DNA from: Candidatus Thorarchaeota archaeon
GTDB lineage: Archaea; Asgardarchaeota; Thorarchaeia; Thorarchaeales; Thorarchaeaceae
NCBI GenBank assembly: GCA_011364905.1
Contig: RDNZ01000008.1
Location: 4,401 to 68,400, forward strand
Reading direction: 5' to 3'
Length of the DNA: 64,000 bases
The position numbers and the translations under genes are program-made. Shown in pieces: positions 15,201 to 51,839 of the stretch. Within the stretch, counting starts at the first letter, position 1, and the number at the start of each line of letters is the position of its first letter. Under the pieces are notes generated by a model that was given only the letters and a program-made list of their open reading frames with translations, was not told the DNA's origin and did no database searches.

Positions 15201-18200
15201 TCATTTCTTAGCATCAAGATCCGCGTCGATACTTTTCAGGAGTTCATCAATTAGGGCACTAGGAAGATTCTTCGCTTGTTTCAGAATTGATGCGATTTCC
15301 TCTTGTGGTAAACCTCTTTGTTCAAGTTGTTCACGGAGATTTTCAATCTCAAGATCGCTCAATCGGTCCTCGAACTCCACCTCTTTAATTGGCACTTCAA
15401 GCTCTGTGTCTTCGATCGATTCGAGAAACGCCTGAATCTTCTCTCTCGGAGCTGTTTTTGCTTCCTCAATTATGGCGTCAATTTCCTGTTTCGGAACTTT
15501 CTTCCGGACCAATTCGGCGCGTAGGTCCTCTCGTTCCTTGTCTGATAACGTATCGACTTTCTTTCTGGGTTTTTTCTTGGTTTTTGTTTCTGGCTTTTTG
15601 AAGAACTCAAGAGCAAGTTCTCTTGGCAGCTCTCTGGCCTGCTCCATAATCGAATCTATTTCACGTTCACTTGCCTTTCGCTTGATCAACTCAGAACGAA
15701 GATCCTCTAACTCCTTTTCAGATAGATGTTCTACTTCTCCTTCTTCTATTTCTGGTTTCTTCCTAGGTGTGAAACCTTCCAGCAGCATCTGAACTACATC
15801 CTTCGGTAGATCTCTGGCTTGAGTGACGAATGACTCGATCTCATGAGATGGAATGCCACGTTTCTCTAGCTGCTCTGCCATTTCTGCTAATTCTATTTCA
15901 CGTAGTCGATGTTCAAAATCGAGACCAGTTTCCTCCTCTTCTGAGACCTCTGTATCTTCTTCGAGATCTTCATAGAGATCTGGTTTGGCTACGGTTGCAG
16001 CTCCCCCAATCCTCTTTCTTCTTTCTTCCACGACCTCGTCCATGACCTGCTCTACAGACTTGTTTTGAACCCCTGCAACCCTAATTGCCTCTTGCCCAAT
16101 TACCTCTCTCACAAAGCTAGTTTGTTGACTCATTTTCATCTTTGCAATCTCAAACTTGAAGTCGTCAAGCTCTTGTTGAGTCATTCCAGTGAGAATTGCA
16201 AGGTCAATAATCAGTTCATCTATTTCGGGGACTTCTATAATGATGGACTCTGCTGGTAGTTGAGAAGCTTTTCTCTTTATTCCAATTGGCTCATTCAATT
16301 CATTGAATAGTTCTGCAACGATGGCTTGTCTTGACCGCATACCCTTCGCTGGTTTTGGCACCTTATTCCTGCGTAGTCGTCGGACCTGACCACTGATTAT
16401 TCTAATTATCTTCGGCACCCTCAAAATCCTTACCCACAGGACACCGAAAAGAATCATGAAGATGATAAATGCACCACCAACTGTCATTACGAACCGTTGC
16501 GTAAGTTGTTCACTTGATGGGCTGACAGAGATCGAAAGCGCCACGTCATCAGCAACATAGTATGTCTTGTTGAAGTGAATTGTCACATCTGCAACACCAG
16601 TTCTATCCGTTGCTGTGACACGGAACAGATAGTAACCCTGGCGACTTTCATCCGGACCAAGATACTCGACCTTGGCAAATAGGGGTCCTTTATTATCTAT
16701 AGTAATCATGGCCTCAGTAATGCCCTCTGAAGGATGTCCTGGCCACGCGTCTGAATAATAGATCGAGAAAGTAGTGTTCATTCCCCAATGAAGCGATATC
16801 ACTTCTGGTCCCATGACCTCAAGATTCGTTTGAATCTCGATGATTTGAATATCGAAGTCAAATACTGCTGTAGTACGGTTTTCGAGAGCGAGTTGAATGT
16901 GAAACGATATCGTTAGATCCAAATCCCAGTCAAGTGTGTTAAAGACAAATGTGTAATTACCAAATCCTTGATCGGATAAAGTGAGTGGTTCTTCATAGAC
17001 ACCCCTTCCACTATAGAACGAACCATTGAAGATTCCATCAGGAATTCCCATTGCAGCGTAGGTGTCATTGTACAATAGTGTGATAGTTAGTATGTCTCCA
17101 TATGGGACTTGTAGATGTGCCCATGAGTCTCCGATTTGATATAATTCTGGTAGAAGAATTGAGATGTCAGTGGGGACTGGGGCAATATGAATTCTAATCG
17201 TTGTTTCCACATTATCATAGTTTGCCTTTCGGAATTCCATCGCAATGGTGTATGTACCTGGTCTCAATGTTGCTGTATCTATTGGGATGCCATAGACTCC
17301 TTCGCCAAGATAGGATGCACTGCCAACTCCTCCTGCCCAGGAGAACGTGAATGTATCTGCCTCCATGCCCTGGGCATGATAACTATCATAGTATGTAACA
17401 TTGACCAGCCCTGCCCATCCCCAATCAAATTCACCGGTTCCCGGTTGTATAATAATTGCCTCTAGATTCTTCACGAATATTGATGTGGAATTGTCTGCTC
17501 TCTCATAATCATCACTTGGTGCATTAGCAGAAATGATGAAGGTGTGCAGTCCAGTAATGTCTATGCTCGTATTGAAGTCATAGTAATAATATCCTGGTCC
17601 TCCTATTGATGCCCCATTCGTGAGTGTCCCATTTTTGGCGAGTTCTGGCGAGTTCCATGTCACAAAAAGCCCATCCAAACCTGTAGAAAATGGATATGAC
17701 GCGTTAAGGGCTGGAGCAAGAACATATACTCCAATTCTGACGACATCAGACCAATTGATAGGGTTGGATTCGTAAGCTGCAGTGATATTGTCGAACCAAA
17801 CGACCATCTGAATCTTTGATATCGCCATAATCAGCGTTGTCGATGCATCCGCGTAGTTTTGTTTTCCAGCATTCACATGAATCTGGTAACTTCCGAAACC
17901 AGCAGATCCAGTTGATATAAGAAATCTGTAGTATCCTGGTCTGCTTGGTATTTCTGTCAATGTGAGGTTGCCCTCATAATCCCACCACGCTGATACATAT
18001 GCTTCAGTCACAAGACTGTCATCAAGAGAGTCTCCAATATACACAATTACTTCTTCAGCATCTCCCTGGGAAACTGTGAAGACATAATTATTACCTTCTG
18101 GAATGACTTCCATGGGTCTTGGCAGTAACCTGAAAACTAGCTGCTCTGTAGCATCAATGTAGTTTGGTGCACTGCCTTTGATTACAACGATTATTGTATC

Positions 18201-21200
18201 AGATACTGTGCCAGAGCTAGTATCCAGAATTGCAGTGTAATTGCCGGGTACACCGGATGGGATGAATGGACCAACTCCACCATCCCAGTCAAATGTGATA
18301 GTTGCTAATGATACTGTCTGATTCCTCAATGTGTCATTCAAAGATGCGAAAATTGTGAGAGGTTCACCCCAATATACCTCATTTGTAGACCTTGGTCCAC
18401 TCCAGGCTATAATTAGGTTGGATGGGACTGCAAGGAGATTAATATCAACTTTCAACGTATTAATCGAATAATGCAAGAGATTTGCGCCCACAGTCAAAAT
18501 TTGCGAGCCATAGTTCAAATTGACTGTCTGAAGTGTCAGGTTATAGCTACCATTTCCAAGGTCATCATATGAGTTTGAGTCACTCCAAGTGAGATCGAGA
18601 GTGGCTCCAGCAAGTGGGCTATCGTTGTCATCAGAGTCAACAAGGTATATCATGACCGATGTGGCATAGCCTGCATAGTTTGCAGGAGCAACATCTGCTG
18701 AAAGTCCTGCAACTCTGTTCCTTAATCCAAACACTACAGCTGTCTGAGCGGTTTGATATTGAGACATAGCAATTGTCACATTTACTGTTTTCAGACCTGC
18801 ACTTATCGAATCCATCATGCTCAGAATAATGTTATATTGTCCACCACCTAATGCTTGGACAGTCCATGAGGATGGTTCCAGTCCTGATGGCTCGTATCTG
18901 ACTATTATCTGCCCTTCTGCTCCGTTTATTGGGACTGCATGGTCAGTATCATTGAATTGTATCACAAAAGAAACATCTTCATAAAATGCAACAACTGAGG
19001 GCGATGGCAATCCACTTGAAACAGATGTTTGAATTGCACGGACCACCCCATGTACCTCTGGTGAGCTGATATTTACATAAAATGGACTTACCAAAGCACT
19101 CCATTGTACTTCAATTGAGAATGTGAAAACGCCAATGCTTCCTAAAGAGGATGTGCTGATAAGAATTTCATACTTTCCCGAATCAATGCCTGTTCCCATT
19201 TGTACCCAATAGTCCAGTCCCTCAGCAAGACCCGGTACTTCAACACAATCGAGAACTATAGTTGCACCCTCTATTCCGTTTCTTTTCCTAAGATCAGTGT
19301 AGATCAAGTTTATACTCATTAGGTCTCCAATTGGCGTTTCTTCAATTTGACTTAACTCGACAGTTCCCACTCTGCCAACAGTGTTAACAAAGATTGAGAC
19401 TGCGTCATCCTTGTAATAAGGTGCTCCGCCAGTCCAACCAACCTGAATTGTTATGTTCCAGCTACTTACCAGGTTTGCAGCTATCACAGTAGAATTGATT
19501 TGTAGTCGAAATATTGAGCCAATTGGCTGAACCACATACTCACCAGATGCAAGAAGGATTCCTCCGCTGAATATCGTGATATCATTGAGAGAAACTAGCA
19601 CTCTTGCGCCCGTCGATATATCGACAAACGTAAAGTCCAATGTCACGTTATCAAGGTACCATGTCTGACCTGGTGGAAATACAATCTCAACATTTGATGG
19701 TCGCTCAGTGACAGGAATGTTGATTGCACGTAGTGCTTCGTTGTAGTAAGGCGATCCCGCAGACCAGTTGGCTGTAACCTGTATTGTTTTCACTCCTGGA
19801 ATTCCAAGAACTGATGTATCTATTGAGATTAGGTATTGACCTGGGCTATTCTCATTGATTATATAGTCGATGGATGGCTCAAGTAGTACCACTCCATAAT
19901 GGAGATAGATTGTTCCACCTGATATGCCTAAGGAGGTTGATGCATCCTTATACAGAATAGTGAAGTTTGCATAGTCCTGGTAAAGAGTTTGAGATGGTGA
20001 TGAAATCAAATCCAGACTTGTGTCGCGCTCCTTCATCTCGAAAGGCACAAGTATATCGTTCCAATCATAGAACGGTGCAGCAAATTCAGAACTGAAGTTC
20101 AACCAAAGATGATAGGTGCGTCCCAACTCGAGTGGTTGGTTATAGGTTTCAACTGTGAGGAGATAGTTCTGGTGTGAGGGTCTCCAGGAACAAGTGAATA
20201 GCCAATCTGTTCCATTAAGAATCTCTAGAGCTACTATAATTCCAGTATCGTTTCCTATCGGCAAAAAGGTGTCGAGGTCTTGATAATGCAAGACTATGCT
20301 GAAAGAGTTCTCATAAGGAACTGATGCAACAGGTTCCGCAGTCAACAGGGTGGATCGTGGACTGACAGTAAGGCTCTTTGTTCCACTTCTGCTCTGATAA
20401 TAAAACTGCTCAGATGAAGCTTCCACTCTCAATGAATAGAGTCCCGGTTGGCTGAAATACGATGTGTTCAGGTCCACACGATATTCTCCCGAACCTAAAT
20501 CTGTAACCTGAATATAATTGGAGGGAATCAAATCTACTCCAACATATACCTCAATCGTGGTGTTAAGAACTGCCTTGGAGGTTGAACCAGCAATATCAGT
20601 GTACGAAACAGTGAATGAAACATTGTTGCCGTATGGTGTGGCGGGAGGTGTAGGATAGGTCAGAATTGTCTGACGTTCCACTATCGTTATGCCGATGTTT
20701 CGTCCTGTTACGTTCGAATAGAATGGCAATCCACTCCAAGCAAGATTCAGTACTAGTGTTCTTGCTCCCAGTGGAGCTCCCAATTGACTTGTGTTGAATG
20801 AAACTTCATACAATCCTTCTAGGGAACTATAGGTCAGTGTGAAATCTGGTACATTTAGTGAAATCGTCATAACTGCGGGGTTGTAATCTATAGGGCTGGA
20901 TAAGCCTCCAGTCGTATCTTCATAAGTGAATGAGAATGTTGCATTTTCGCCAAAGGGCACATTGGTCGGAGGGATGACGGAGAGCGACGCAGTCCTAGGA
21001 AGGACTCTCACAGAAATCAAGTCAGTCCTGTTTGTGTAGAATGGAACCACACCAGCGGACCAGTTTATGAAAACTCTCATTGAAAAGATTCCAGTTCCTC
21101 CAACTATTGAATTGTTGAATCCGATTGAATACTCTCCTTTCCTGTTGACACTGTCTATCTCCCAAATGTCCACTATGGATAAATCAACGGAAGCGCCGAC

Positions 21201-24200
21201 AAACTCAACATTGATGAAGACGTTGGATGTGTCATTCGTAATTCCACCTGTAGATGGGCTAGAATACAGGAATGTATAGACCATATAATCAAGGCAAGGA
21301 GAGGGAAGAGCAGCTTCAATCAATGTTAGTTCAGTATCTGCTCCCAAAATTTCAACTACAATGGACAGGTATCTGTTCTCATACTTCTGAATACTTCCAG
21401 TCCAGTTGAAATAGACTCTAAGTTGTTGAATCCCAATGCCTCCAAACTGTGAGGCTGCAATCGATATAGTGTAATATCCATCGCCCCTGATTGAGTCATT
21501 ACCCCAATTAACCACCAACTGGTGAGTTGTATTCCAGACTGTGCATAGGACATCAGAAGAGGCAATTCCTTGTAAATGATCGCGATCACCATAGTAGACA
21601 GAAACATTGATTGTCCCATCCGAAGTCGTGTCCTCCACTGGTGACAAAAGTCGTAATTCTGTTGTTATTGTTCGAACGACGACCGTGACATTGAATGTAG
21701 CTGCTTCATATTCTGGCCCAGCTGCGAAGTCAAAGACTAGAAGATAAGATGTCAATGCATCGCTGTCATAGGTATGAATTGTGATACTATATCGATTAGC
21801 CACCCAAACGATGTCAAAATGAGCCGGTGTCCAACTGCAGTTGTGATTCAGAGTGAAGATTGGTAGGTTATGATCCATATCAGTATAATCGACATAGAAA
21901 GTTCGAGAGTCACCCACAGGTATTTCCAGCGCACTAATAGTAGCAGTGGCATAAGTTCTAATTTGTCGTATCTGAATGTCAATAGATATGGTCTTGTTCT
22001 CATAGGTTAATGCAGAAGCCTCAAAAGTCACACTATATGTTCCAATACCCCAAGAGGACGTGTTGAGCGTTACCCGATATCTTCCACTACTTATCAGTTG
22101 TTGACCGAGAATATCTGCTCCTGTCACATAAACAGTTGCTGTGTCAATTCCAATGCCTCTATCCAAATCAACAAACTCCAAGGTGACAATCGCATTTGTA
22201 CTGTAGGATATTGTAAGAAGGGGATAATCTGGAGAAGTCAAATCACTTTGAGCTTGCGTGAATTGAAAACTAATGATAGGCGTTTGTGTGTTGGAGTAGT
22301 TCTCTGATATTCCAAAGACTAGGAAAACCCGTATACCATAGGCGCCTCCCGCGAAATATAAGTGATCGAGAGTTAATACGTAAGTTCCTGAAGGTTGAGC
22401 TGAGAATGTTTTGATGGTGTAGACAGTCCCATTCTTATCCCTGATGATGAAGTGACTCTGTAAAAGACCATTCACGGGTGTATCGTCATATATTGAACTT
22501 GAGTCATTTACAGTCACATGAGTCGTTATCTCGAAGTCATCTCCGATTGGAAAAACATCAATGTCATCCCAAGAGAGGACAACGGCTAGCTTCTGGATCC
22601 TCAACAGTATCGACGTCGTCCCATCATAGAAGTACCTCGGAGAAGTTGTAGCGAGGATTGTAATGTCAATTACATAGGTGCCTAATGTCCAATCCTGAGA
22701 GTCGATGAGGACCTGAAGTGAACCAAAAGATGCAGACCCACCAGCCCACTCAGCCAAAACGCTAGACAGATTTCCTGATATTGCGGCATTTCCAGCGTCA
22801 CGGTCTAGTAATTGAAGAGTGACGGTGGCATTGGACCCCATGGATATAGTGCCATCATAGGAAGCCACTACGGTTGTCCTATGCGGTCTTACAGTTACTG
22901 CCACTGTGATTTGGGCTGGTTGATAATTAGTCCCATCGATTGTGAAATTGAACAAATAAACTCCAACGTCATAGGAATCAACTTCGATTTGGACCGAGTA
23001 TCTCCCATCAAGAAGGTCTGCGTATTGGAACACTCCATCACCAAGTAGTGTTCCTCCAATTATCCCCGCATCACTGTGATCAGTATCCAGCCAATTGAGT
23101 GTGATACTCGCATTACGTCCCCAAGGTACGCTGACTGGATTTACCTCGATCTGAACGAGGTCTGTCTTTATCTCCCTATAGCGGAATACAACATCAACTG
23201 AACTTCCTATCACAAAGCTTTGAGCTGGAACTGCATTTATTGTATAGCAATGTGTTCCGAAGCTCGAGCCTGTTGAAACCAGGCTGACAAGATACGTACC
23301 GTTGTTATAGTCTGTAACACCATTAATCGTACCATTTGATGTGAAAGATGCCCCATCGTAACCCGCTCTGGTAATTGCATCTTCAAGCTCCACTTTGACA
23401 CTAAAGTCATCACCATAGGGCGTTGAGGGGGGTGTCTTGAAAGATAGAATAGTGTTGCGTGAAAGTTCCAAATCAAAGAAAGTTGTTGCATCTATCAGGT
23501 ACTGATGGCTCGAAACGATATTGATTCTCCAATTTCCAGGTTGATTGAGGTCCGAGGTGTTGAGAGTCTTCCCATAGATGCCGTTACCATAGTCTTCCAA
23601 TTGAATCTGTGTTTCGGCTCCCGAGATACTCCAGTTCATTGCAACTTTAGAGCCCGCCACATCTTGGGAAGTTTCAGTATTTGTCAGTTGAACTTCGACT
23701 TTGAGAAGATCTCCTGCAGTCCGTACTGCCACACCATCTCCAACTGCGTCTGTGGGTGATAATAGACTAAGTGACGATGCATGTTTGACGGTGAACAATC
23801 TGCTATACCTTCCAACGCGTTCTGGACTTGAATCAGCTGTGTTATTGAAATCGACATGAACCTCCCAGAGCCCATTTGGCCATGCACTTGTCACACTTAT
23901 TCCAGTCCATTCAAACTGACCACTTCCATCCTGAGTAAGATCATCTGTGCTGTAAAAGAGCTGACCACTTGAATCAATCAAAGAAAGCCGCATTGCGGAC
24001 CCAGGAATCATCGTAGCAGTTCCTCGGAATTTTGCAGAGTCTCCAATTTGCAGTGCTACAGAGTTTCCATATGCCCCCGCATTCGCGCCACACTCAAGAT
24101 TTGTGATCTCATTGGAGGATGAGAACATAAATGTCCAAACTCCGTACACGTCAAGCACTGAAGAGGGCACCATGACCTGTAAGCTTGTAGCAGTGACGTA

Positions 24201-27146
24201 GAAGAGTCTGTCCTGACCGAGTGAATCGGTCACACTTGAAAGAGTCCAATCTGAAGGTTTCATAAGTGTGAAATTCAGTGTACTCACACCTGGCGGGGGG
24301 CTAACTAAGACATTAGCTGTCCATGATGCATCAGTGTCATTATTCACACTGAACGAAGAACCATATTCAAAGTTTGCATCGAGAGTTGAGTCAGAATGAG
24401 TCACATTGATTTTTAGTCTTGGAAGAATCTCAACAACTGAGTCTGAACTCGTGGCAAAGAGCAGTTTTGCCTTTTCTCCGAACTGCGTTGTCTGCTCAAT
24501 ACCTTTAGTCAGGAATCCTGAAGGATCATATTGGTTTGCATATTCTGTCTGAATCCAACCAGCCGATTTGTAACCATTGATTACTCTAAACTCATCAATG
24601 CCTCCTCGAAACGGAGTGCCTCCTCCTATTGTACCAATGACGAACATATTGCTATCGCTACGCAAAGAACCTCCAGTTCCCAAGGTGTTATCATTAAACG
24701 AGTCCAAAAGCACACCATCTACAAAGCTATAGCCCCGGTACCGCCCATCCCCGCTGCTCTCATATTTAAAGACCACATAGTTCCAAGCTTGTCTCTTGAC
24801 GAGCACACCTTGGAAAGCATCGTAGCCGTTGAAATGAACATCAACTTGGAAATTGGCATATCCAGGGACTCCAACATCGAATGTACGCGCCAGACTCATA
24901 GAAGTACCCTTATCGAATACTCTCCATTCGTTTGACCAGAACTCGGTATCAGTGGAGAAATTAAAGTAGATCCAGAATGAGAATTGCCAATCAGACCAGC
25001 CATCAAAGATGCTCTGACCGTCAACAAAGGAAATGTAGTTGCTCCCTACATTCTCGCTGTATCTGGCACCATCAATCATCCCGTTCGGCATATAGCTCGT
25101 TAAAGTTGGTTCTCCGCCGTGACCATTGATGCTTGAATCCATCAAGTACGCTGCAGTGCCTGACTGTTCAGAGAGATGCCAGATACTTTCGTATCCTTGC
25201 CAAATATTGGCTGAATTCTCTATTCTTTGAGGTTCAGGTGTTCCATATTGCATGCTGATTACGGTGTCCTCAGTTGCAGACAAATAGGGGACTTGAACCC
25301 ACGCAATCAGGTGCGCGTGTGTACCATTGTAATTCGGGTCAAATACTTCGACTTGATAGTCCAATGTTTCTGAGCCTGATACAAATCTAATGTCATCACC
25401 ATCTGATCGAGCATGGCTTTTAAGATCGGCATCAAGAATGTCGACAAGAACAGGGAAGTTTTCAAGGTCCGCGCTGACCTTTGTATGGTCTATTGTCAGT
25501 TCTTTACTGTACTGTTGTACTGATATTGTGTCTTCTTCCTGAGGTATCATAAAGTCAACATAGAGTCTTGCGAGGTTTCCTCCTCCATATGACCAAGTTC
25601 CCTTTATCGTGTTGTAGTCGCGATAGTTATCTGAGAACATGTAGCCAATCATTAAACCAATGTAGTTGCCACTAGACCATCCCGAACGGGAAACCACTGC
25701 TTGGACAAGTGATGAAATGTCCGGTGACGCATATCGATAGTCAGCCGTCCAGTAATTTGGTGCCCAGTCAATGCTGTTCTCAATCCAGGGATACTGAACC
25801 TCCAAAGGATTAGCGCCAGTGGCAAATGGTGCCATATTGTCAGCTGCAGCCACCCATACTTTGAACGTGTTGTCATCCCCATCCGAACTATACTCACCTA
25901 GAGCCTCAATTTCCAATCTCGCAGATGTAATTACAGCTCCTCTTGGGATGTTTAATGGAAACTGCATTCCAGTTTGATACTTAATCACATCAGTCCAAGC
26001 TGTGCCACTTGAACTGTAGACTCCCACCTCTGGAGTTCCTGTAACACTTATTCCGGTATCAGAGCGACTGACACAGTCTCTGTTTGCCCCATCTGGTACA
26101 AAGGGCATGGTACTATCTGACACGGTCCCTGTGATCACAGTCTGATTGGCATGAAGACCAACTTGTTCTGGGAAAGGCCTTACTGTGAATGTGGCCTCTA
26201 TCTCATCTATATACACGAAGTTATTAATATTGGATGGAGGTTGACCCGAAAAGTCTGTACTCAGACCAATTGACAATGGAACAGATCCCGGTACTGGAAT
26301 ACTTGAGAATACCGAGGCCGGTACATCAACAAATCCCTGCAGCCACGTGTCGGTGGTATAGCCTGTATCAAATACGCCAAACCTGGCCTCATAGTTTCCG
26401 ACCCTCACAAACAGATAAAACATGCCATTCAATGTCTGACCACTTGGTACTCTATGATAGAATGATAGTCTGCAGGAGTACACCTCTCTCCATGGCAACT
26501 GGACCTGCTGACTTAGATATATCTCCATGTTGGGATTAAGAGTCTTGGTTGTGTCAAATAGAACACTGGGTCTCCACCCCATAGAGCTCTCTCTCCCGGC
26601 TCCTGCTGATGTGTACCAATAGAGCCCTCCATGCCTAGGATGCGTTGTCGAGTCACCCTTTTTCACAAGTGACCAGCCATCAGGCAGATAGAATGTTTCT
26701 GAGTTCCATGTTGAGCCTGTTATAATGTAACGTTCTGTATGGTAGTCATCAAGAAGTCCATTTGTCAATTGGGAAATTCGCGTAGAAATGTGCTCCATTG
26801 TTCCACTTAGAGCATTTGCAGTCCAGCCTTGAGGTGTGGCGATGGGAACTGATGCTGGCGTTGATGAGTCGAGCATGACAATAGGCTGTGTGGCATTAGA
26901 GAAGACGCCGCTAAAATTGATTGGTTGTGCTGCTCCTGTTGAACTATACTCTTGAGAACCCTCGGAAGGCTCAAACCAGTAAGGCGAGTTTTTGTTAATG
27001 ACCTTTCCACTGGTCAAATCAGACTGATTTGGAGTGAAACCTGCTGGAGAGCAAAACATTAGCAGGATGATACATGGGATTATGGCTCTGGAACACACTA
27101 GCTTCCATATCTTAGCGCGTTTCTTAGGGGAAGTACCTACTATCAT
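15201..27146 (-). CDS. Giant type-I membrane surface protein (3981 aa), paralog of the upstream giant gene
   Basis: Uninterrupted 11,946-nt ORF. N-terminal hydrophobic signal/anchor KLVCSRAIIPCIILLMFCSPAGF. ~550-aa head domain. One DUF2341-like + LamG-like module (LTIDHTKVSADLENFPVLVDILDADL, DGDDIRF, IWHLSE, GWIQTEYANQYDP). More than 20 ~100-aa repeats. TM helix FVMTVGGAFIIFMILFGVLWV (16431..16493). 409-aa charged tail (15204..16430). The ATG overlaps the stop of the upstream gene (ATGA). Confidence 0.85.
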   Translation of the reverse strand: MIVGTSPKKRAKIWKLVCSRAIIPCIILLMFCSPAGFTPNQSDLTSGKVINKNSPYWFEPSEGSQEYSSTGAAQPINFSGVFSNATQPIVMLDSSTPASVPIATPQGWTANALSGTMEHISTRISQLTNGLLDDYHTERYIITGSTWNSETFYLPDGWSLVKKGDSTTHPRHGGLYWYTSAGAGRESSMGWRPSVLFDTTKTLNPNMEIYLSQQVQLPWREVYSCRLSFYHRVPSGQTLNGMFYLFVRVGNYEARFGVFDTGYTTDTWLQGFVDVPASVFSSIPVPGSVPLSIGLSTDFSGQPPSNINNFVYIDEIEATFTVRPFPEQVGLHANQTVITGTVSDSTMPFVPDGANRDCVSRSDTGISVTGTPEVGVYSSSGTAWTDVIKYQTGMQFPLNIPRGAVITSARLEIEALGEYSSDGDDNTFKVWVAAADNMAPFATGANPLEVQYPWIENSIDWAPNYWTADYRYASPDISSLVQAVVSRSGWSSGNYIGLMIGYMFSDNYRDYNTIKGTWSYGGGNLARLYVDFMIPQEEDTISVQQYSKELTIDHTKVSADLENFPVLVDILDADLKSHARSDGDDIRFVSGSETLDYQVEVFDPNYNGTHAHLIAWVQVPYLSATEDTVISMQYGTPEPQRIENSANIWQGYESIWHLSEQSGTAAYLMDSSINGHGGEPTLTSYMPNGMIDGARYSENVGSNYISFVDGQSIFDGWSDWQFSFWIYFNFSTDTEFWSNEWRVFDKGTSMSLARTFDVGVPGYANFQVDVHFNGYDAFQGVLVKRQAWNYVVFKYESSGDGRYRGYSFVDGVLLDSFNDNTLGTGGSLRSDSNMFVIGTIGGGTPFRGGIDEFRVINGYKSAGWIQTEYANQYDPSGFLTKGIEQTTQFGEKAKLLFATSSDSVVEILPRLKINVTHSDSTLDANFEYGSSFSVNNDTDASWTANVLVSPPPGVSTLNFTLMKPSDWTLSSVTDSLGQDRLFYVTATSLQVMVPSSVLDVYGVWTFMFSSSNEITNLECGANAGAYGNSVALQIGDSAKFRGTATMIPGSAMRLSLIDSSGQLFYSTDDLTQDGSGQFEWTGISVTSAWPNGLWEVHVDFNNTADSSPERVGRYSRLFTVKHASSLSLLSPTDAVGDGVAVRTAGDLLKVEVQLTNTETSQDVAGSKVAMNWSISGAETQIQLEDYGNGIYGKTLNTSDLNQPGNWRINIVSSHQYLIDATTFFDLELSRNTILSFKTPPSTPYGDDFSVKVELEDAITRAGYDGASFTSNGTINGVTDYNNGTYLVSLVSTGSSFGTHCYTINAVPAQSFVIGSSVDVVFRYREIKTDLVQIEVNPVSVPWGRNASITLNWLDTDHSDAGIIGGTLLGDGVFQYADLLDGRYSVQIEVDSYDVGVYLFNFTIDGTNYQPAQITVAVTVRPHRTTVVASYDGTISMGSNATVTLQLLDRDAGNAAISGNLSSVLAEWAGGSASFGSLQVLIDSQDWTLGTYVIDITILATTSPRYFYDGTTSILLRIQKLAVVLSWDDIDVFPIGDDFEITTHVTVNDSSSIYDDTPVNGLLQSHFIIRDKNGTVYTIKTFSAQPSGTYVLTLDHLYFAGGAYGIRVFLVFGISENYSNTQTPIISFQFTQAQSDLTSPDYPLLTISYSTNAIVTLEFVDLDRGIGIDTATVYVTGADILGQQLISSGRYRVTLNTSSWGIGTYSVTFEASALTYENKTISIDIQIRQIRTYATATISALEIPVGDSRTFYVDYTDMDHNLPIFTLNHNCSWTPAHFDIVWVANRYSITIHTYDSDALTSYLLVFDFAAGPEYEAATFNVTVVVRTITTELRLLSPVEDTTSDGTINVSVYYGDRDHLQGIASSDVLCTVWNTTHQLVVNWGNDSIRGDGYYTISIAASQFGGIGIQQLRVYFNWTGSIQKYENRYLSIVVEILGADTELTLIEAALPSPCLDYMVYTFLYSSPSTGGITNDTSNVFINVEFVGASVDLSIVDIWEIDSVNRKGEYSIGFNNSIVGGTGIFSMRVFINWSAGVVPFYTNRTDLISVRVLPRTASLSVIPPTNVPFGENATFSFTYEDTTGGLSSPIDYNPAVMTISLNVPDFTLTYSSLEGLYEVSFNTSQLGAPLGARTLVLNLAWSGLPFYSNVTGRNIGITIVERQTILTYPTPPATPYGNNVSFTVSYTDIAGSTSKAVLNTTIEVYVGVDLIPSNYIQVTDLGSGEYRVDLNTSYFSQPGLYSLRVEASSEQFYYQSRSGTKSLTVSPRSTLLTAEPVASVPYENSFSIVLHYQDLDTFLPIGNDTGIIVALEILNGTDWLFTCSWRPSHQNYLLTVETYNQPLELGRTYHLWLNFSSEFAAPFYDWNDILVPFEMKERDTSLDLISSPSQTLYQDYANFTILYKDASTSLGISGGTIYLHYGVVLLEPSIDYIINENSPGQYLISIDTSVLGIPGVKTIQVTANWSAGSPYYNEALRAINIPVTERPSNVEIVFPPGQTWYLDNVTLDFTFVDISTGARVLVSLNDITIFSGGILLASGEYVVQPIGSIFRLQINSTVIAANLVSSWNITIQVGWTGGAPYYKDDAVSIFVNTVGRVGTVELSQIEETPIGDLMSINLIYTDLRKRNGIEGATIVLDCVEVPGLAEGLDYWVQMGTGIDSGKYEILISTSSLGSIGVFTFSIEVQWSALVSPFYVNISSPEVHGVVRAIQTSVSSGLPSPSVVAFYEDVSFVIQFNDTDHAVPINGAEGQIIVRYEPSGLEPSSWTVQALGGGQYNIILSMMDSISAGLKTVNVTIAMSQYQTAQTAVVFGLRNRVAGLSADVAPANYAGYATSVMIYLVDSDDNDSPLAGATLDLTWSDSNSYDDLGNGSYNLTLQTVNLNYGSQILTVGANLLHYSINTLKVDINLLAVPSNLIIAWSGPRSTNEVYWGEPLTIFASLNDTLRNQTVSLATITFDWDGGVGPFIPSGVPGNYTAILDTSSGTVSDTIIVVIKGSAPNYIDATEQLVFRLLPRPMEVIPEGNNYVFTVSQGDAEEVIVYIGDSLDDSLVTEAYVSAWWDYEGNLTLTEIPSRPGYYRFLISTGSAGFGSYQIHVNAGKQNYADASTTLIMAISKIQMVVWFDNITAAYESNPINWSDVVRIGVYVLAPALNASYPFSTGLDGLFVTWNSPELAKNGTLTNGASIGGPGYYYYDFNTSIDITGLHTFIISANAPSDDYERADNSTSIFVKNLEAIIIQPGTGEFDWGWAGLVNVTYYDSYHAQGMEADTFTFSWAGGVGSASYLGEGVYGIPIDTATLRPGTYTIAMEFRKANYDNVETTIRIHIAPVPTDISILLPELYQIGDSWAHLQVPYGDILTITLLYNDTYAAMGIPDGIFNGSFYSGRGVYEEPLTLSDQGFGNYTFVFNTLDWDLDLTISFHIQLALENRTTAVFDFDIQIIEIQTNLEVMGPEVISLHWGMNTTFSIYYSDAWPGHPSEGITEAMITIDNKGPLFAKVEYLGPDESRQGYYLFRVTATDRTGVADVTIHFNKTYYVADDVALSISVSPSSEQLTQRFVMTVGGAFIIFMILFGVLWVRILRVPKIIRIISGQVRRLRRNKVPKPAKGMRSRQAIVAELFNELNEPIGIKRKASQLPAESIIIEVPEIDELIIDLAILTGMTQQELDDFKFEIAKMKMSQQTSFVREVIGQEAIRVAGVQNKSVEQVMDEVVEERRKRIGGAATVAKPDLYEDLEEDTEVSEEEETGLDFEHRLREIELAEMAEQLEKRGIPSHEIESFVTQARDLPKDVVQMLLEGFTPRKKPEIEEGEVEHLSEKELEDLRSELIKRKASEREIDSIMEQARELPRELALEFFKKPETKTKKKPRKKVDTLSDKEREDLRAELVRKKVPKQEIDAIIEEAKTAPREKIQAFLESIEDTELEVPIKEVEFEDRLSDLEIENLREQLEQRGLPQEEIASILKQAKNLPSALIDELLKSIDADLDAKK
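15231..15917 (-). repeat. Four tandem ~42-aa helix-loop-helix repeats in the cytoplasmic tail of the 3981-aa protein
   Basis: LREIELAEMAEQLEKRGIPSHEIESFVTQARDLPKDVVQMLL / LSEKELEDLRSELIKRKASEREIDSIMEQARELPRELALEFF / LSDKEREDLRAELVRKKVPKQEIDAIIEEAKTAPREKIQAFL / LSDLEIENLREQLEQRGLPQEEIASILKQAKNLPSALIDELL. One copy occurs in the larger giant (27176..27304: LDEDELKQIRKKLESVGIKGSELETIMDQARELPRSLAEELL). Confidence 0.7.
16494..23795 (-). repeat. Array of ~100-aa beta-sandwich-like (Ig-like) repeats, extracellular stalk of the 3981-aa protein
   Basis: At least ~23 recognisable copies of the same strand motif (ITLNWLDTDHSDAGIIGGTL, FYVDYTDMDHNLPI, VSVYYGDRDHLQGIASSDV, NLIYTDLRKRNGIEGATI, VMIYLVDSDDNDSPLAGATL, ...). 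Confidence 0.6.
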
Positions 27147-30100
27147 TCCTCTTCACCTCCTTTCCCGAGAATGCTTCTCAGGAGCTCCTCAGCTAGACTT
27201 CTTGGAAGTTCACGTGCTTGGTCCATGATTGTTTCAAGTTCGCTGCCCTTGATTCCAACACTCTCCAGTTTCTTGCGAATCTGTTTCAACTCATCTTCAT
27301 CCAACATCTCTGCTGATTCGACTTCTTCAAATTCCACTGGTTCTGGAATAGCTTCTTCAGGCTCTTCCACTTCTGGTGGAATGATCCTTTCTTCAAGTGG
27401 CTTGGATTCCACCACTACTTCAATCTCTTCTCCAGCCAGAACAGCACGCGCCTTAGCGGCGGTTTCCTCCAAAATTACCTCCATCGGTTTTCGTTCTAAT
27501 CGTGCCTGTTTGATGGCCTCTTGGTTGATTACCTCTTTGACAAAACTCACCTGTTCACTCAACTTCATCTTTGAAACATCAAGCTTGAAGTCTTCAAGTT
27601 CTTCAGGTGATAGCTTCGACAGGATTGATAGTTGAATGAGCAGTTCCTCAATTTCAGGAACATCACTGGCGATAGGTTCACTTGGCATACTGGATGCTAT
27701 CTTTGTGATACCAATAGGTTCTGCAATATCATTGAATAAGTTTGCAACAATCTCTTGCCTACTTAGAACGCCATCTGGAGGCTTGGGTATTTTTCCCTTA
27801 GCAATAGTTCTTACCATTTTCCTGATAGCCCGTAGCTGCTTTGGCACACTAAATAGCCTGGTCCATAGTACTGCTCCAAGCAATAATATTGCACCAATTG
27901 GAACACCGAAGAGTATTGCTTGTTCAACAAGCAAATCAAACTCAGAGGGTTCGACTGAAACTGTTACCAACGCACTGATTGAAACATAATTGTCCTTGGA
28001 TAGAATGATTGAAACTAGAGCTGTTCCTTCTGCTCTATTAGATCGCACTCTTATTTCATACCAGCCTGGTCTTGATGGATCGGACTGGTTTAGTGAAACG
28101 TCCACGAAGCGCGTATCTAGACTTGTAGCATTTATTGACGCTCCTACTATGCTCGCATTCATATGACCTTCCCAAGTGTCATAGTAAAGTACCCAGATAC
28201 TGAAGACTTGGCCATAGTTCATGGTTACGGAACTTGGATCAATATATAGCGCTGTTGGGACATCAATTATCGTGAGATGAATATCCAGTGTTGCCCTACT
28301 CCAGTTGGTAAGGTGGAAGTTTAGAATCAATCTATATGGATCTGAACTAACCGTCCATCGTGTGGTGTCAATCAGCAGACTATAGTTGCCATTTGTGATT
28401 TCTTCGATAAGGAGATTGTCTCCATCAGGAACCGAAGAACCAAGAATCACACATTTCGTTTCGGTAGCACCCATAATCCCCCGATTATACCATGTGTCAT
28501 TATAGAAAAGGGTGAGTGAGATTGTGTCTCCATAAGGTATCTGAAGATTTAGAACATCATGGTCAATCTGATTTATCGTGGGTGCGAATGCAGCTATATC
28601 TGTTGGGACTTCTTTTACATTAAGTGTGAAAACGCCTGTTCCACTCTTGTAATTGTCCATCAGAAACCTCACAGAAACAGGATAAATTCCGGGACTAACT
28701 AGGGAGGCATTTATGAATACTTGATATGTTCCATTTGCTACATACGTGGATGTACTCTCACCACCATCCCATTCCACCAGTACTGTGGCTCCAGCTATTC
28801 CTCTATCAAACAAGAGGTCCCAGTATGTGATATCAACCCAACCAGTCCACCCCCAGATTTTTGGACTCAAGTATGTTGATTCGACTGATGTTTCAATGGG
28901 TTTTATTATCAAGGTTGTAAGATTGCTAGAATACGCAAACATGCCGATATTGGGATAAGCTGTGATTCTAAGTGTGTAAGTAGAAACATCATAGTTCCAG
29001 GTTTCGAAATCGAAGTAGAAATATCCTGGTCCTTCCATTGACGTCCCATTGAGGAACTCTCCTGTAAAAGTGGTTCCCGAGAGTGACCATAGCACCGTGC
29101 AATTTGCCAAACCTGTTGAAAATGGATCAGACTCGTTCAATGAAGGTGCAAGAACATATACTCCAATTCGAATTGTATCTGACCAGTTGAAGCTTTGACC
29201 ACTGTAACTAGAGGTTAGCGCATCAAGTTGTAGAACTGTGGCTATCTGTTTGACCTTAATGCTTGCAGGGGCTACTGAACGAAGATAGTTAGTTCCACTT
29301 GCTTCTATCGTAATGGAATACTGTCCAACAAGGAAGTCGTTTGTGTCAATGAAACAGGTATAGTACCCATCTTTTGCAGGGATTGGAGATAAGCTAATGC
29401 TCTGCGGTCCTTGTAAAACCCATCTGACTGTGACAGTTGCTCCTAGTAGAGGTATGTTTCGATATGTGTTATTGACATAGACTGTCACATTTACAGGAGT
29501 GCCTTTAAACACCTCTTGTTGTGCGCTACTGATAATACTCACAGTGGTTGGCAGTTTTAGGACATTCACTATGACTTGCGAGGTATTAGTGACGTAGTTG
29601 TTGAATGTAGCTGTGATTGATATGACATAGGTCGATGCTAGCACTAGATTGCCCGTATCTACTGTGACTGTGTAATTCCCTTGGTCAGATACGATTTCAG
29701 TAAGACTACCACTCAATGTACCAAACTGGTAAGTGAGTGTTGCTCCAGATATTACAGTGCCAGCTTTAGTGTCATTGAAGATTGCCCAGAATGATATGTC
29801 ATCGCCCCAGTAGACATCTGGGATTGTCTGAGGCAGAATGAGTCCAGTTGGTATGCGTTGGATTTCAACTGGTACAGAAATATCTGAGATGAAGTAGTCA
29901 CTTCTTAATGCACCAACCATGAGTGTATAGAGACCCGCATCAAGACTAGATGTAGTGAGTGTAATGTTGTACTGGCCATTCCCAAGATTGGTATAGTATG
30001 GAGTATATCCGATGTCTGGCCAAGTGATTGATAGTGTGGCGTCACTAATGGGTGTGTTATTTGCATCTGTGTCAACAAGTTCTACGATAACAAAGGTGGT

Positions 30101-45780: not shown

Positions 45781-45848
45781 ATAAGAATAGTAATTAATTA
45801 CACCTCATAGTGTTGATTATTATTGAGGAAGGCGTGGTTGTCGTAAAG

Positions 45849-47090: not shown

Positions 47091-47176
47091 AGCTGGTTTC
47101 TTCAGGCATTGAATAGATAATCGAAGACTACATTTAATTCTCTCAACAAACAACCCCGCAAGATATCAGAAAAGTA

Positions 47177-47184
47177 TTTAATAT
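47177..47184 (+). promoter_or_regulatory. Putative TATA box (TTTAATAT) for GTPase-like paralog 2
   Basis: Identical 8-mer ~55 nt before the ATG. Conserved leader TTGAGAAAGATGTGGTTG (47211..47228) ends 7 nt before the ATG. Confidence 0.3.
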
Positions 47185-47235
47185 GTTCAAATATTACATA
47201 ATAATTACTCTTGAGAAAGATGTGGTTGCTTAGAT

Positions 47236-51837: not shown

Positions 51838-51839
51838 CT

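What the first reader, a model, noticed from the sequence alone, without database searches (positions are those of the whole stretch)
15204..16430. Conserved cytoplasmic tail with four HeH/SAP-like ~42-aa repeats (3981-aa giant)
After the TM helix the two giants share a basic juxtamembrane segment and a conserved ~120-aa region. RILRVPKIIRIISGQVRRLRRNKVPKPAKGMRSRQAIVAELFNELNEPIGIK...VPEIDELIIDLAILTGMTQQELDDFKFEIAKMKMSQQTSFVREVIGQEAI aligns with RLFSVPKQLRAIRKMVRTIAKGKIPKPPDGVLSRQEIVANLFNDIAEPIGIT...VPEIEELLIQLSILSKLSPEELEDFKLDVSKMKLSEQVSFVKEVINQEAI. This tail then carries four repeats of L(S)..E.E.LR..L...(R/K)G(I/L)P..EI..I..QA..LP......LL separated by K/E-rich linkers. The first half of each repeat resembles the helix-extended-loop-helix pattern of SAP/HeH/Rho-N motifs (L..L.V.ELR.EL..RGL). 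That resemblance is pattern-level inference only. Conservation of an intracellular tail on a giant surface protein argues for specific cytoplasmic partners such as nucleic acid, cytoskeleton or the neighbouring LRR/GTPase-like proteins.
Basis: partly seen in the sequence, partly recalled or inferred. Interest (0 to 1): 0.75.

Follow-up and report, generated by a model that had tools for sequence, protein, structure and literature searches.

The report
Conserved cytoplasmic tail of Asgard giants
The end of this giant archaeal surface protein is a real, conserved intracellular tail: a novel helical domain next to the membrane, then an acidic flexible leash carrying four small three-helix bundles. 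The tail marks a family of Asgard-archaeal surface proteins, but it is not a SAP/HeH DNA-binding motif, and its binding partner is unknown.

Summary
Window 15204-16430 (- strand) encodes the last 409 residues of a 3981-aa type-I surface protein (g1), directly after its only C-terminal membrane helix. The upstream 5889-aa giant (g2) has a homologous tail.

The tail has three parts:
- a 142-residue, gap-free, all-helical juxtamembrane block
- an acidic Glu/Pro-rich linker
- a 46-residue module predicted with high confidence as a three-helix bundle, present four times in g1 and once in g2

A profile search of 1.84 billion protein representatives found this module in only 103. In 96 of them it ends within 8 residues of the C-terminus. 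It almost always follows TM + block, on proteins up to 5543 aa. Every named source is Asgard: Thor-, Hod- or Hermodarchaeota, or unclassified Promethearchaeota.

The HeH/SAP reading is not supported:
- No Pfam hit reaches threshold.
- Profile-profile similarity covers only helix 1 plus the "RGxP" turn.
- SAP's invariant Gly and Lys are not matched.
- Foldseek returns no SAP, LEM or Rho-N fold.
- The modules are acidic (mean net charge -4.2).

Neither domain matches any known family or solved fold.

My best reading is a cytoplasmic protein-docking or tethering cassette. The LRR/Roc-GTPase neighbours are specific to this locus, not to the family. The cassette is a new, uncharacterised pair of domains, and its function is inferred only.

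The parts
16431..16493 (-). g1 single C-terminal transmembrane helix (aa 3552-3572, FVMTVGGAFIIFMILFGVLWV). It acts as the stop-transfer anchor that precedes the tail.
   Evidence: Hydropathy scan. Coordinates verified by translation.
16008..16433 (-). g1 conserved juxtamembrane block (aa 3572-3713, 142 aa). It is gap-free across 20 homologues with 21 invariant columns, is all-helical, and has no known relatives.
   Evidence: Alignment A2. AlphaFold pLDDT 85.6 with six helices. No PDB sequence hit below E 0.49, no Foldseek hit below E 0.97, and no Pfam or NCBIfam hit at threshold.
16371..16412 (-). Basic amphipathic juxtamembrane helix KIIRIISGQVRRLR (net charge +5), followed by the near-invariant G-K-(I/V)-P-K-P turn. 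Inferred to lie on the inner leaflet.
   Evidence: Helix at block residues 8-21 in the model. Charge. Conserved columns P7, K8, R11, P26, K27 and P28.
16011..16226 (-). Four-helix core of the block (aa 3641-3712). It holds the most conserved motif, SKMKxSEQxxFVxEVIxQE.
   Evidence: pLDDT 90-94 over block residues 70-140. Invariant columns K98, M99, S102, F107, E110, V111, I112, Q114 and E115.
15909..16007 (-). Acidic linker between the block and repeat 1 (33 aa, net charge -12).
   Evidence: Across the family this linker has a median length of 46 aa, with 28% Glu and 13% Pro.
15771..15908 (-). Repeat 1 (aa 3747-3792), three-helix module.
   Evidence: 41.6 bits against the independent single-repeat HMM. 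Coordinates verified.
15591..15728 (-). Repeat 2 (aa 3807-3852), three-helix module.
   Evidence: 46.7 bits..
15414..15551 (-). Repeat 3 (aa 3866-3911), three-helix module.
   Evidence: 42.2 bits..
15228..15365 (-). Repeat 4 (aa 3928-3973), the terminal three-helix module. It is the counterpart of the single repeat in g2-type proteins. Only 8 residues (DADLDAKK) follow before the stop codon.
   Evidence: 65.3 bits, the best of the four. AlphaFold pLDDT 90.2 with helices 8-20, 25-37 and 40-54. R4 orthologues are 60-85% identical to it, against 29-45% for all other units, including the single repeats of g2-type proteins.
27437..27862 (-). g2 juxtamembrane block (aa 5651-5792), 47% identical to the g1 block.
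27170..27307 (-). g2 single terminal three-helix module (aa 5836-5881), preceded by a 43-aa linker of net charge -15 (window 27308-27436).
27863..27919 (-). g2 C-terminal transmembrane helix (aa 5632-5650).

Best explanation
The region encodes the intracellular C-terminal cassette of a giant type-I surface protein. The cassette defines a family of Asgard-archaeal surface proteins, most of them from Thorarchaeota.

Proposed mechanism:
1. The N-terminal signal sequence exports the glycosylated ectodomain.
2. The single TM helix stops transfer across the membrane.
3. A strongly basic amphipathic helix plus a KIPKP turn pins the chain to the inner leaflet.
4. A ~110-residue helical domain of novel sequence and fold sits at the membrane.
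5. A Glu/Pro-rich, probably disordered leash of about 30-55 residues holds an acidic three-helix bundle at the very C-terminus. There is one copy in most members and in g2. There are four copies on K/E-rich spacers in the g1 lineage.

I read the bundle as a protein-protein docking handle, not a nucleic-acid binder. It would recruit a shared cytoplasmic partner, or associate with other tails, so that surface giants are positioned, clustered or mechanically coupled from inside. The four copies in g1 would raise valency or reach.

Shown here: the anatomy, the conservation, the family-wide architecture, the predicted folds, and the absence of known homologues. Inferred: the topology, the disorder of the leash, the docking function, and the existence of a partner.
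For: - **Topology.** Signal-like N-termini and a single C-terminal TM helix. K/R count of 10 after the TM helix against 0 before it. Sequons doubled over expectation in the ectodomain and nearly absent from the tail. Composition changes from S/T/N/Y-rich and K-poor to K/E-rich.
- **Constraint.** The block aligns over 142 columns with no gaps and 21 invariant columns across 42-85% identical homologues. The repeats are conserved in a position-specific way: R4 orthologues are 60-85% identical, other units 29-45%.
- **Fold.** The repeat is predicted as a three-helix bundle (pLDDT 90.2). The block is predicted as six helices (pLDDT 85.6).
- **Family-wide architecture.** 103 hits among 1.84e9 representatives. 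In 96 of 96 full-length repeat hits the last repeat ends within 8 aa of the C-terminus. In 62 of 65 a hydrophobic segment abuts the start of the block. Sixty-eight members have one repeat and 7 have four. The linker has a median of 46 aa with 28% Glu and 13% Pro.
- **Taxonomy.** All named members are Thor-, Hod- or Hermodarchaeota, or 'Promethearchaeota'.
- **Charge.** Units have a mean net charge of -4.2 (range -7 to +1), which argues for protein rather than DNA ligands.
- **Cell-biology context.** A cultured Asgard archaeon has no ordered S-layer. It shows many complex surface proteins on a single membrane above an actin cytoskeleton (PMC9834061).
Against: - No partner was identified.
- No gene recurs next to family members at different loci.
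- Within orthologues the tail is only about as conserved as the ectodomain: 62 vs 57%, 44 vs 43%, 43 vs 42% and 50 vs 43% identity. Tail conservation is therefore not exceptional for these proteins.
- Most conserved positions in the repeat are hydrophobic-core or helix-capping residues (S-x-x-E, P-x-x-E, L-P). They could reflect fold stability alone.
- Topology rests on the positive-inside rule and sequon statistics, not on a dedicated predictor or an experiment.
- Both structural models are predictions from shallow alignments that are narrow in taxonomy.
Confidence: 0.55

Rival explanations
1. HeH/SAP-like nucleic-acid-binding repeats. Each repeat would be a helix-extended-loop-helix motif that tethers DNA or RNA to the membrane under the giant protein.
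For: - The first half of the unit (L..E.E.LR..L..RG[IL]P) resembles the SAP helix 1 plus 'RGL' pattern.
- hhalign of the unit alignment against solved SAP domains gives pairwise E 4.4e-4 (probability 33.6%) over 24 columns.
- Four of 61 units give sub-threshold Pfam SAP hits, best E 0.01.
Against: - The hhalign match stops before SAP helix 2. The SAP-invariant G27 and K29 face the repeat's invariant E27 and a variable column.
- No unit reaches Pfam's SAP cut-off, and other helical families match more units (VIT1 21, cwf21 18, RecX_HTH1 16).
- The unit profile finds no SAP, LEM or Rho chain in the PDB at E<=10.
- The predicted fold is a three-helix bundle with a 4-residue H1-H2 turn.
- Foldseek lists no SAP fold for the repeat among the 50 matches shown.
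- Units have a mean net charge of -4.2, against 0 to +3 for five SAP domains.
Confidence: 0.04
2. Passive anchor. The cassette only fixes topology, retains the giant in the membrane and acts as a spacer or ballast. No specific partner exists, and conservation reflects folding and membrane-interface requirements.
For: - The basic amphipathic juxtamembrane helix and the positive-inside pattern.
- Conserved repeat residues are mostly core or capping positions.
- Tail conservation is no higher than that of the ectodomain among orthologues.
- No operonic partner is conserved across the family.
Against: - Topology and anchoring need only a TM helix and a few basic residues.
- A 142-residue gap-free block with invariant polar residues (R35, N44, E70, E88, K98, S102, E110, Q114, E115) is more than an anchor requires.
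- The same holds for a folded module kept at the extreme C-terminus in 96 of 96 members and held on a leash of conserved length and composition.
- Position-specific conservation of four diverged copies in the g1 lineage also exceeds what an anchor requires.
Confidence: 0.2
3. Tail-tail oligomerisation. The block and/or the bundles associate with each other, for example g2 with g1, which are made from overlapping genes. This would assemble the giants into a complex or lattice from the cytoplasmic side.
For: - The g2 stop and g1 start overlap by 4 bp (ATGA, 27143-27146). The same arrangement occurs in the orthologous locus L007 (gene ends 24632, next starts 24629). This suggests co-production.
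- All family members share the same cassette, so it could act as a common assembly interface.
Against:
- Strongly acidic bundles on acidic leashes would repel each other unless cations or a basic partner bridge them.
- Family members also occur singly at other loci.
Confidence: 0.13
4. The tail is the docking site for the neighbouring cytoplasmic LRR protein and Roc/Ras-like GTPases. This would form a split ROCO-like signalling unit under the giants.
For: - The order LRR gene (44968-45600, -), then g2, then g1 on one strand, with divergent Roc/Ras GTPase genes (45810-48480), is seen.
- The order LRR-giant plus divergent GTPase is kept in the related loci L003, L005 and L007. L002, which is cut by its contig end, keeps only the LRR gene next to the giant. 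Identities are 52-67% for the LRR protein and 52-81% for the GTPase.
- The LRR protein has no signal peptide.
Against: - All loci with this synteny are orthologous loci of fairly close relatives, so gene order may simply not have decayed yet.
- Three other cassette-bearing family members (L006, L008, L009) have no LRR or GTPase within 8-10 kb.
- No interaction test could be run.
Confidence: 0.08

Closest known systems
SAP domain (Pfam PF02037) and the wider HeH/LEM/Rho-N helix-extended-loop-helix motifs
   Same: Helix 1 and the following 'R-G-[LIV]' turn share the L..L.v.ELr.EL..RGl pattern. hhalign aligns 24 columns at 33.6% probability.
   Different: - SAP has two helices joined by an extended loop with invariant Gly and Lys. 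It is basic and binds DNA.
- This unit has three helices with a tight 4-residue turn.
- It has an invariant Glu where SAP has Gly.
- It is acidic.
- It fails the Pfam threshold and finds no SAP structure by sequence profile or Foldseek.
RecX three-helix repeats (Pfam PF21982 RecX_HTH1, PF02631 RecX_HTH2)
   Same: Both are tandem ~50-residue three-helix modules. This is the structurally most sensible sub-threshold Pfam match: 16 of 61 units, best E 4.8e-4. Two homologues (P0012, P0013) carry a precomputed 'faint' RecX_HTH1 hit.
   Different: - No unit reaches the gathering score (11.4 bits against a cut-off of 26 for the g1 tail).
- No RecX chain was found with the unit profile in the PDB or among the listed Foldseek matches.
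- RecX repeats pack against each other in a soluble RecA regulator. Here the units are separated by charged linkers on a membrane-protein tail.
UBA-type and other small three-helix bundles (HHR23A UBA, USP5 UBA, paramyxovirus P X-domain, protein A Z-domain)
   Same: Same size and three-helix topology. These appear among the weak Foldseek matches (E about 5-8, TM about 0.4-0.65). UBA_HYPK gives 4 of 61 sub-threshold Pfam hits.
   Different: No match is significant (best Foldseek E 2.0, probability <=0.30). The UBA signature loop (MGF/MGY) is absent. The resemblance is at the level of a generic fold.
Helix-loop-helix of the polycystin-2 C-terminal EF-hand domain (PDB 2y4q, 2kq6, 2kld)
   Same: This is the best sequence-profile hit in the PDB (E 1.3e-3)...[20 protein letters not shown] against ...EL..LR.EL..RG.P..EIE.I. 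It also lies in the cytoplasmic tail of a membrane protein.
   Different: Only 23 columns align (per-domain E 0.6). The repeat has no DxDxDG calcium-binding loop and three helices rather than a four-helix EF-hand pair.
Membrane tethers built as TM - charged domain - flexible linker - terminal globular domain (e.g. E. coli ZipA), and cytoplasmic tails of eukaryotic adhesion receptors (integrin, cadherin). Functional analogy from general knowledge.
   Same: Same architectural logic: a single-pass anchor, a juxtamembrane region, a flexible leash, and a terminal docking element that in the known cases binds a cytoskeletal or adaptor protein.
   Different: No sequence or fold relationship was detected. 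The orientation differs from ZipA, which is N-terminally anchored with no ectodomain. The partner here is unknown. This is an analogy only and was not tested.

Membership tests
SAP domain (PF02037) | Match to the Pfam SAP model at or above its gathering score | tested here: not met
   The whole tail gives no SAP hit at E<=1. Of 61 units scanned singly, 4 give sub-threshold hits (best E 0.01) and none reaches the cut-off.
SAP domain (PF02037) | Two helices joined by an extended loop that carries a conserved Gly and Lys, followed by the helix-2 pattern L..RL | tested here: not met
   In an alignment of solved SAP domains, G27, K29, L32, R35 and L36 are invariant. hhalign with the unit profile ends at SAP column 29 and puts G27 opposite the repeat's invariant E27. 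The model has a 4-residue H1-H2 turn and a third helix.
SAP domain (PF02037) | Structural similarity to a solved SAP/HeH/LEM/Rho-N domain | tested here: not met
   Foldseek of the pLDDT-90 repeat model against 350,542 PDB chains gave a best E of 2.0. No SAP, LEM, HeH or Rho-N entry appears among the 50 listed matches.
SAP domain (PF02037) | Nucleic-acid binding | not testable with these tools
   Only electrostatics are available. Units have a mean net charge of -4.2 (range -7 to +1), against 0 to +3 for five SAP domains. This argues against binding but does not measure it.
HeH (PF12949), LEM (PF03020), Rho_N (PF07498) | Match to the family model | tested here: not met
   None appears among the Pfam hits at E<=1 for the tails, or among the 25 families most often hit by single units.
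RecX three-helix repeats (PF21982, PF02631) | Match at the gathering score, or similarity to solved RecX | tested here: not met
   RecX_HTH1 gives 11.4 bits against a cut-off of 26 on the g1 tail. Sixteen of 61 units hit below threshold, best E 4.8e-4. No RecX chain was found by profile or by Foldseek.
EF-hand | 12-residue DxDxDG-type calcium-binding loop between two helices, in paired hands | tested here: not met
   The sequence shows this directly. The H1-H2 connection is the 4-residue turn R-G-x-P. The polycystin-2 match covers 23 columns only.
ESCRT-III-type MIM1/MIM2 motifs for the Vps4 MIT domain (considered because an ESCRT cluster is nearby and the module is C-terminal) | [DE]xxLxxRLxxL[KR] at the C-terminus, or a [LV]Px[VL]P motif | tested here: not met
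   Of 136 family tails, none has a strict or relaxed MIM1. Three have a MIM2-like string anywhere in the last 260 aa. The consensus was recalled from general knowledge.
Type-I (N-out, C-in) single-pass membrane protein | N-terminal signal sequence, one C-terminal TM helix, positive-inside charge bias, and glycosylation sites confined to the N-terminal part | tested here: met
   g1 has hydrophobic segments at aa 13-39 and 3551-3578 only. K/R count is 10 after the TM helix and 0 before it. There are 69 sequons in the ectodomain (35.7 +/- 4.8 expected) and 1 in the tail. No dedicated topology predictor was available.
The Asgard 'TM + block + terminal three-helix module' cassette family defined here | Block starts at the end of the TM helix, an acidic linker follows, and the last module ends within 8 residues of the C-terminus | tested here: met
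   g1 and g2 both fit. So do 96 of 96 family representatives for the C-terminal position and 62 of 65 for the TM-block junction.

The most novel reading that the evidence does not exclude
The cassette is an Asgard-specific transmembrane coupling device. Its terminal three-helix handle and juxtamembrane domain would link giant adhesin-like surface proteins to the cytoskeleton (Lokiactin), to ESCRT membrane-remodelling machinery, or to small-GTPase signalling. That would make it a functional counterpart of integrin and cadherin cytoplasmic tails in the closest archaeal relatives of eukaryotes. The four-handle g1 and one-handle g2 would form a co-translated receptor pair.
Probability: 0.12. Interest if true: 0.8.

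Novelty: new variant of a known kind. Interest (0 to 1): 0.5.

Why it matters
Asgard archaea lack an ordered S-layer. In the one species imaged in detail, they display many large surface proteins over an actin cytoskeleton (PMC9834061). How the surface and the interior communicate is unknown.

This analysis defines a compact, recognisable intracellular cassette made of two domains with no detectable relatives. It terminates roughly a hundred sequence clusters of Asgard surface proteins, including giants of 3000-5900 residues.

- **For annotation:** the cassette is a practical marker for finding these proteins, whose genes are usually broken in metagenome assemblies.
- **For experiments:** it offers small, soluble, well-predicted baits, namely a 46-residue bundle and a ~110-residue helical domain. 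Pull-downs or co-folding screens with them would turn the question "are Asgard surface proteins wired to the cytoplasm?" into a direct experiment.
- **For the record:** the SAP/HeH/DNA-tethering idea can be dropped.

Tried and rejected
1. **SAP/HeH/LEM/Rho-N homology.** Tested with Pfam on the whole tails and on 61 single units, a unit-profile search of the PDB, Foldseek, and hhalign against solved SAP domains. Only the helix 1 + RGx turn resembles SAP. Rejected.
2. **RecX, UBA, EF-hand, FtsY N-domain, uS15 and paramyxovirus P-XD.** All matches are sub-threshold or generic helical hits. Rejected as family assignments.
3. **Known fold for the juxtamembrane block.** The best PDB profile hit is E 0.49 (NHE1 tail peptide). 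The best Foldseek hit is E 0.97 (a designed protein). NCBIfam and Pfam give nothing at threshold.
4. **A fifth, degenerate repeat inside the block (LS.EEL.DF..I.KMK.SEQ).** HMM E-values are 0.1-10. hhalign of unit against block gives 6% probability over 23 columns. Suggestive but not established.
5. **MIM1/MIM2 motifs for the nearby Vps4.** Essentially absent.
6. **A conserved operonic partner.** The LRR/GTPase neighbourhood occurs only at the orthologous locus. Other members have unrelated neighbours.
7. **Context from the 2.58-Mb Thorarchaeota record CP070658.1.** The homologue there is called as a 495-aa partial gene with no giant upstream, so it is uninformative.
8. **DNA-level tandem repeats.** None with the ~180-nt period.
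9. **Literature.** Searches found no description of this tail. The held library does not cover all journals.
10. **Not done.** The third Foldseek job (viral library) and the third homologue search were left unused because they could not change the verdict. Multimer modelling was not available.
Full report
**What is at the coordinates**

The window carries two adjacent giant genes on the minus strand: g2 (27143..44812, 5889 aa) and g1 (15201..27146, 3981 aa). The finding (15204-16430) is exactly the part of g1 that follows its only C-terminal hydrophobic helix (aa 3552-3572, window 16431-16493). It runs to the last codon. The two tails align at 41% identity over 221 residues (E 2e-51).

**Topology**

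Each giant has a signal-peptide-like N-terminus and a single C-terminal TM segment.
- In g1 the 26 residues that begin 6 residues before the end of the hydrophobic segment (RILRVPK...) contain 10 Lys/Arg and no acidic residue. The 15 residues before the segment contain none.
- g2 shows 6 against 0.
- N-x-S/T sequons number 69 in the g1 ectodomain, against 35.7 +/- 4.8 in shuffles, and 1 in the tail.
- Composition changes from S/T/N/Y/G-rich and Lys-poor to Lys/Glu-rich.

These are standard indicators of an N-out, C-in type-I protein, so the tail is very probably cytoplasmic. This is an inference. No dedicated predictor or experiment was available.

**Anatomy of the tail**

*Part 1: the juxtamembrane block.*
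- It spans 142 residues (window 16008-16433) and aligns without any gap across 20 homologues of 42-85% identity.
- It has 21 invariant and 21 nearly invariant columns.
- AlphaFold (pLDDT 85.6) predicts six helices:
  - a basic amphipathic helix directly after the membrane (KIIRIISGQVRRLR, net +5)
  - a conserved G-K-(I/V)-P-K-P turn
  - a short helix (SRQxLVADLFN)
  - an extended conserved stretch (…MPxExIxIEVPE…)
  - a four-helix core with pLDDT above 90 that holds the motif SKMKxSEQxxFVxEVIxQE

*Part 2: the linker.* It is 33 residues with net charge -12 in g1, and 43 residues with net charge -15 in g2.

*Part 3: the 46-residue module.*
- It occurs four times in g1, starting at aa 3747, 3807, 3866 and 3928 (a period of about 60 residues, with K/E-rich spacers). 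It occurs once in g2.
- The repeats are not a by-eye artefact. An HMM built only from the C-termini of 21 single-repeat homologues finds exactly four domains in the g1 tail, at 41.6-65.3 bits. The best of 1000 shuffled tails reaches 9.5 bits.
- The terminal copy (R4) scores highest, so it is the counterpart of the single copy elsewhere.
- R4 orthologues are 60-85% identical to it, and all other units are 29-45% identical. The quadruplication is therefore old and each copy has been kept.
- There is no DNA-level periodicity.

**Fold of the module and the SAP/HeH question**

With an alignment of 61 units, AlphaFold gives a compact three-helix bundle (pLDDT 90.2; helices 8-20, 25-37, 40-54). The conserved pattern reads naturally as helix-capping boxes (S-x-x-E, P-x-x-E, L-P) plus a hydrophobic core. 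That reading is my inference from the sequence.

I tested the SAP/HeH idea in four ways.
1. **Pfam.** There is no SAP, HeH, LEM or Rho_N hit at E<=1 on the tails. Scanned singly, 4 of 61 units hit SAP below threshold (best E 0.01). VIT1 (21), cwf21 (18) and RecX_HTH1 (16) hit more units, and nothing reaches a gathering score.
2. **Unit profile against all PDB sequences.** Forty-two hits at E<=10 include no SAP, LEM or Rho chain. The best is the helix-loop-helix of the polycystin-2 EF-hand domain (E 1.3e-3, 23 columns).
3. **Foldseek of the model against the PDB.** The best E is 2.0 and there is no SAP-type fold among the 50 listed matches. Only generic small helical domains appear: FtsY N-domain, UBA, uS15, paramyxovirus P-XD.
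4. **hhalign against SAP domains harvested from solved structures** (1zrj, 2do1, 2kvu, 1h1j, plus hnRNP-U). The result is 33.6% probability over 24 columns. These cover helix 1 and the R-G-x turn and end before SAP's second helix. SAP's invariant Gly27 falls opposite the repeat's invariant Glu27.

The units are also acidic (mean net charge -4.2, range -7 to +1, against 0 to +3 for the SAP set). This makes nucleic-acid binding unlikely.

**The block has no known relatives**

- The profile search of the PDB gives nothing better than E 0.49.
- Foldseek gives nothing better than E 0.97.
- Pfam and NCBIfam give nothing at threshold.
- A possible fifth, degenerate repeat inside the block (LS.EEL.DF..I.KMK.SEQ) is not established. 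Its HMM E-values are 0.1-10, and hhalign gives 6% probability.

**Distribution: the most informative result**

The tail query finds 23 homologues, and the block profile 51. All named ones come from Candidatus Thorarchaeota, Hodarchaeota, Hermodarchaeota or unclassified 'Promethearchaeota'. Most are fragments at contig ends, as expected for giant genes.

An exhaustive HMMER search of the unit profile against 1.84 billion cluster representatives finds only 103 proteins at E<=1e-3. Their architecture is very uniform.
- In 96 of 96 proteins with a near-full-length module, the last module ends within 8 residues of the C-terminus.
- Seventy-five also contain the block. The others are short fragments.
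- In 62 of the 65 where the start of the block is present, a hydrophobic segment abuts it.
- Sixty-eight have one module and 7 have four.
- The linker has a median of 46 residues, with 28% Glu and 13% Pro.
- Protein lengths range from fragments up to 5543 aa.
- A more divergent subfamily (for example P0159, P0161, P0167) keeps the same order of parts and is also from Thor- and Hodarchaeota.
- The few off-family hits are bacterial proteins with a simple E..L...L...G.P..EI..IL hairpin that matches helices 1-2 only (P0147, P0148, P0151, P0152, P0171).

The cassette TM + block + leash + terminal bundle is thus a defining C-terminal module of an Asgard-restricted family of surface proteins.

**Caveats on "conservation"**

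- g1 and g2 are paralogous over their entire ectodomains (about 35% identity). The shared tail is partly a consequence of a tandem gene duplication.
- Between g1 and four orthologues the tail is about as conserved as the ectodomain: 62 vs 57%, 44 vs 43%, 43 vs 42% and 50 vs 43%. It is not exceptionally conserved.
- The argument for function rests on three other points. The block tolerates no gaps. Polar residues within it are invariant. The module keeps its terminal position and its leash across the whole family.

**Neighbours**

The order is: ESCRT cluster (EAP30, ESCRT-II, Vps4, Snf7; 51046-54558), AspRS, hydrolase, two Roc/Ras GTPases (45810-48480, +), LRR protein (44968-45600, -), g2, g1.
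- The LRR-giant order with a divergent GTPase recurs in the related loci L003, L005 and L007. In L002, cut by its contig end, only the LRR gene is seen next to the giant. Identities are 52-67% for the LRR protein and 52-81% for the GTPase. Those relatives have one GTPase rather than two.
- These are orthologous loci of related Thorarchaeota.
- Three other family members at different loci have unrelated neighbours.
- The LRR/GTPase link is therefore a property of this locus and not of the cassette. It remains a candidate partner, no more.
- MIM1/MIM2 motifs for Vps4 are absent from 136 family tails.

**Interpretation**

The best-supported reading is a cytoplasmic docking or tethering cassette. 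It comprises a stop-transfer anchor, a membrane-hugging basic helix, a novel helical domain at the inner leaflet, and one or four acidic three-helix handles on flexible acidic leashes for protein-protein contacts. The architectural logic resembles known membrane tethers and adhesion-receptor tails. That is an analogy only.

Rivals are:
- a passive anchor or spacer
- tail-tail oligomerisation of the co-translated g2/g1 pair (ATGA start/stop overlap at 27143-27146, also present in L007)
- docking of the neighbouring LRR/GTPase proteins
- the SAP-like nucleic-acid reading, now very unlikely

In the one Asgard archaeon imaged in detail, the envelope lacks an ordered S-layer. It carries numerous complex surface proteins above an actin cytoskeleton (PMC9834061). 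This makes an inside-outside link worth testing but does not demonstrate one.

**Verdict**

The cytoplasmic location and the conservation hold. HeH/SAP does not. Partners are untested.
- The cassette consists of two uncharacterised domains with no detectable relatives and a restricted Asgard distribution. It is a new variant of the general theme of single-pass surface proteins with adaptor tails.
- Interest is moderate. The anatomy is clear and the cassette is a useful handle for experiments, but the function is inferred only.

Noticed in passing
window 27143-27146: The g2 stop codon and the g1 start codon overlap by 4 bp (ATGA), with AGGA just upstream. The same 4-bp overlap is seen between the two giants in locus L007 (gene ends 24632, next starts 24629). 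This suggests translational coupling of the two giants.
   Followed up: partly
window 15201-44812 (both giants): g1 and g2 are paralogous throughout their ectodomains (about 35% identity over >2400 aa). A module of about 350 aa (g1 aa 545-900) matches at least six places in g2, so the ectodomains are built from internal repeats. Pfam sees only DUF2341 and Laminin_G_3 in g1.
   Followed up: partly
window 15201-27146 and 27143-44812, ectodomain parts: N-x-S/T sequons are enriched in the g1 ectodomain (69 observed against 35.7 +/- 4.8 in shuffles). Enrichment is milder in g2 (79 against 61.3 +/- 6.7). This is consistent with heavy N-glycosylation of the exported part.
   Followed up: partly
window 44968-45600 (-), 45810-47090 (+), 47236-48480 (+): A 210-aa LRR protein without a signal peptide lies directly upstream of g2 on the same strand. 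Two tandem Roc/Ras-type GTPases of ~420 aa, each with an unannotated ~210-aa N-terminal half, are transcribed divergently. Related loci L003, L005 and L007 have one such GTPase, so the pair here is a recent duplication. Together they resemble a split ROCO-like set.
   Followed up: partly
window 51046-54558: An ESCRT gene cluster is present: EAP30/Vps36-like, ESCRT-II subunit, Vps4 (AAA + weak MIT + Vps4_C) and Snf7. It lies about 6 kb from the giants. The same neighbourhood, including AspRS and an alpha/beta hydrolase, is kept in locus L007.
   Followed up: partly
L001 10001-11488 (CP070658.1, 2.58-Mb Thorarchaeota record): In this apparently complete chromosome the four-repeat tail homologue (P0012) is annotated as a 495-aa partial protein, with a tRNA-synthetase fragment just upstream and no giant gene. 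The giant may have been collapsed or lost in assembly. Most family members in the databases are likewise truncated at contig ends.
   Followed up: no
P0148, P0151, P0171 (bacterial-looking proteins found): These small signal-peptide proteins carry three copies of a ~25-aa motif, YNMDDP.ERE.LAASLR..G.PE.EI..IL. The motif matches helices 1-2 of the Asgard module only. It is an unrelated family sharing the same simple helix-turn-helix hairpin, and it shows how easily this pattern recurs.
   Followed up: no
P0163 (182 aa, ENA contig of 710 bp): This short protein has an N-terminal HTH-like segment, one TM helix and a single C-terminal copy of the three-helix module (E 2.5e-4), but no block. It may be the only case of the module outside the cassette. 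Its source organism is unknown.
   Followed up: no
window 9458-10492 (+), 10496-11329 (-), 54561-56138 (-): Three ORFs of 277-525 aa have no Pfam match at E<=1e-3.
   Followed up: no
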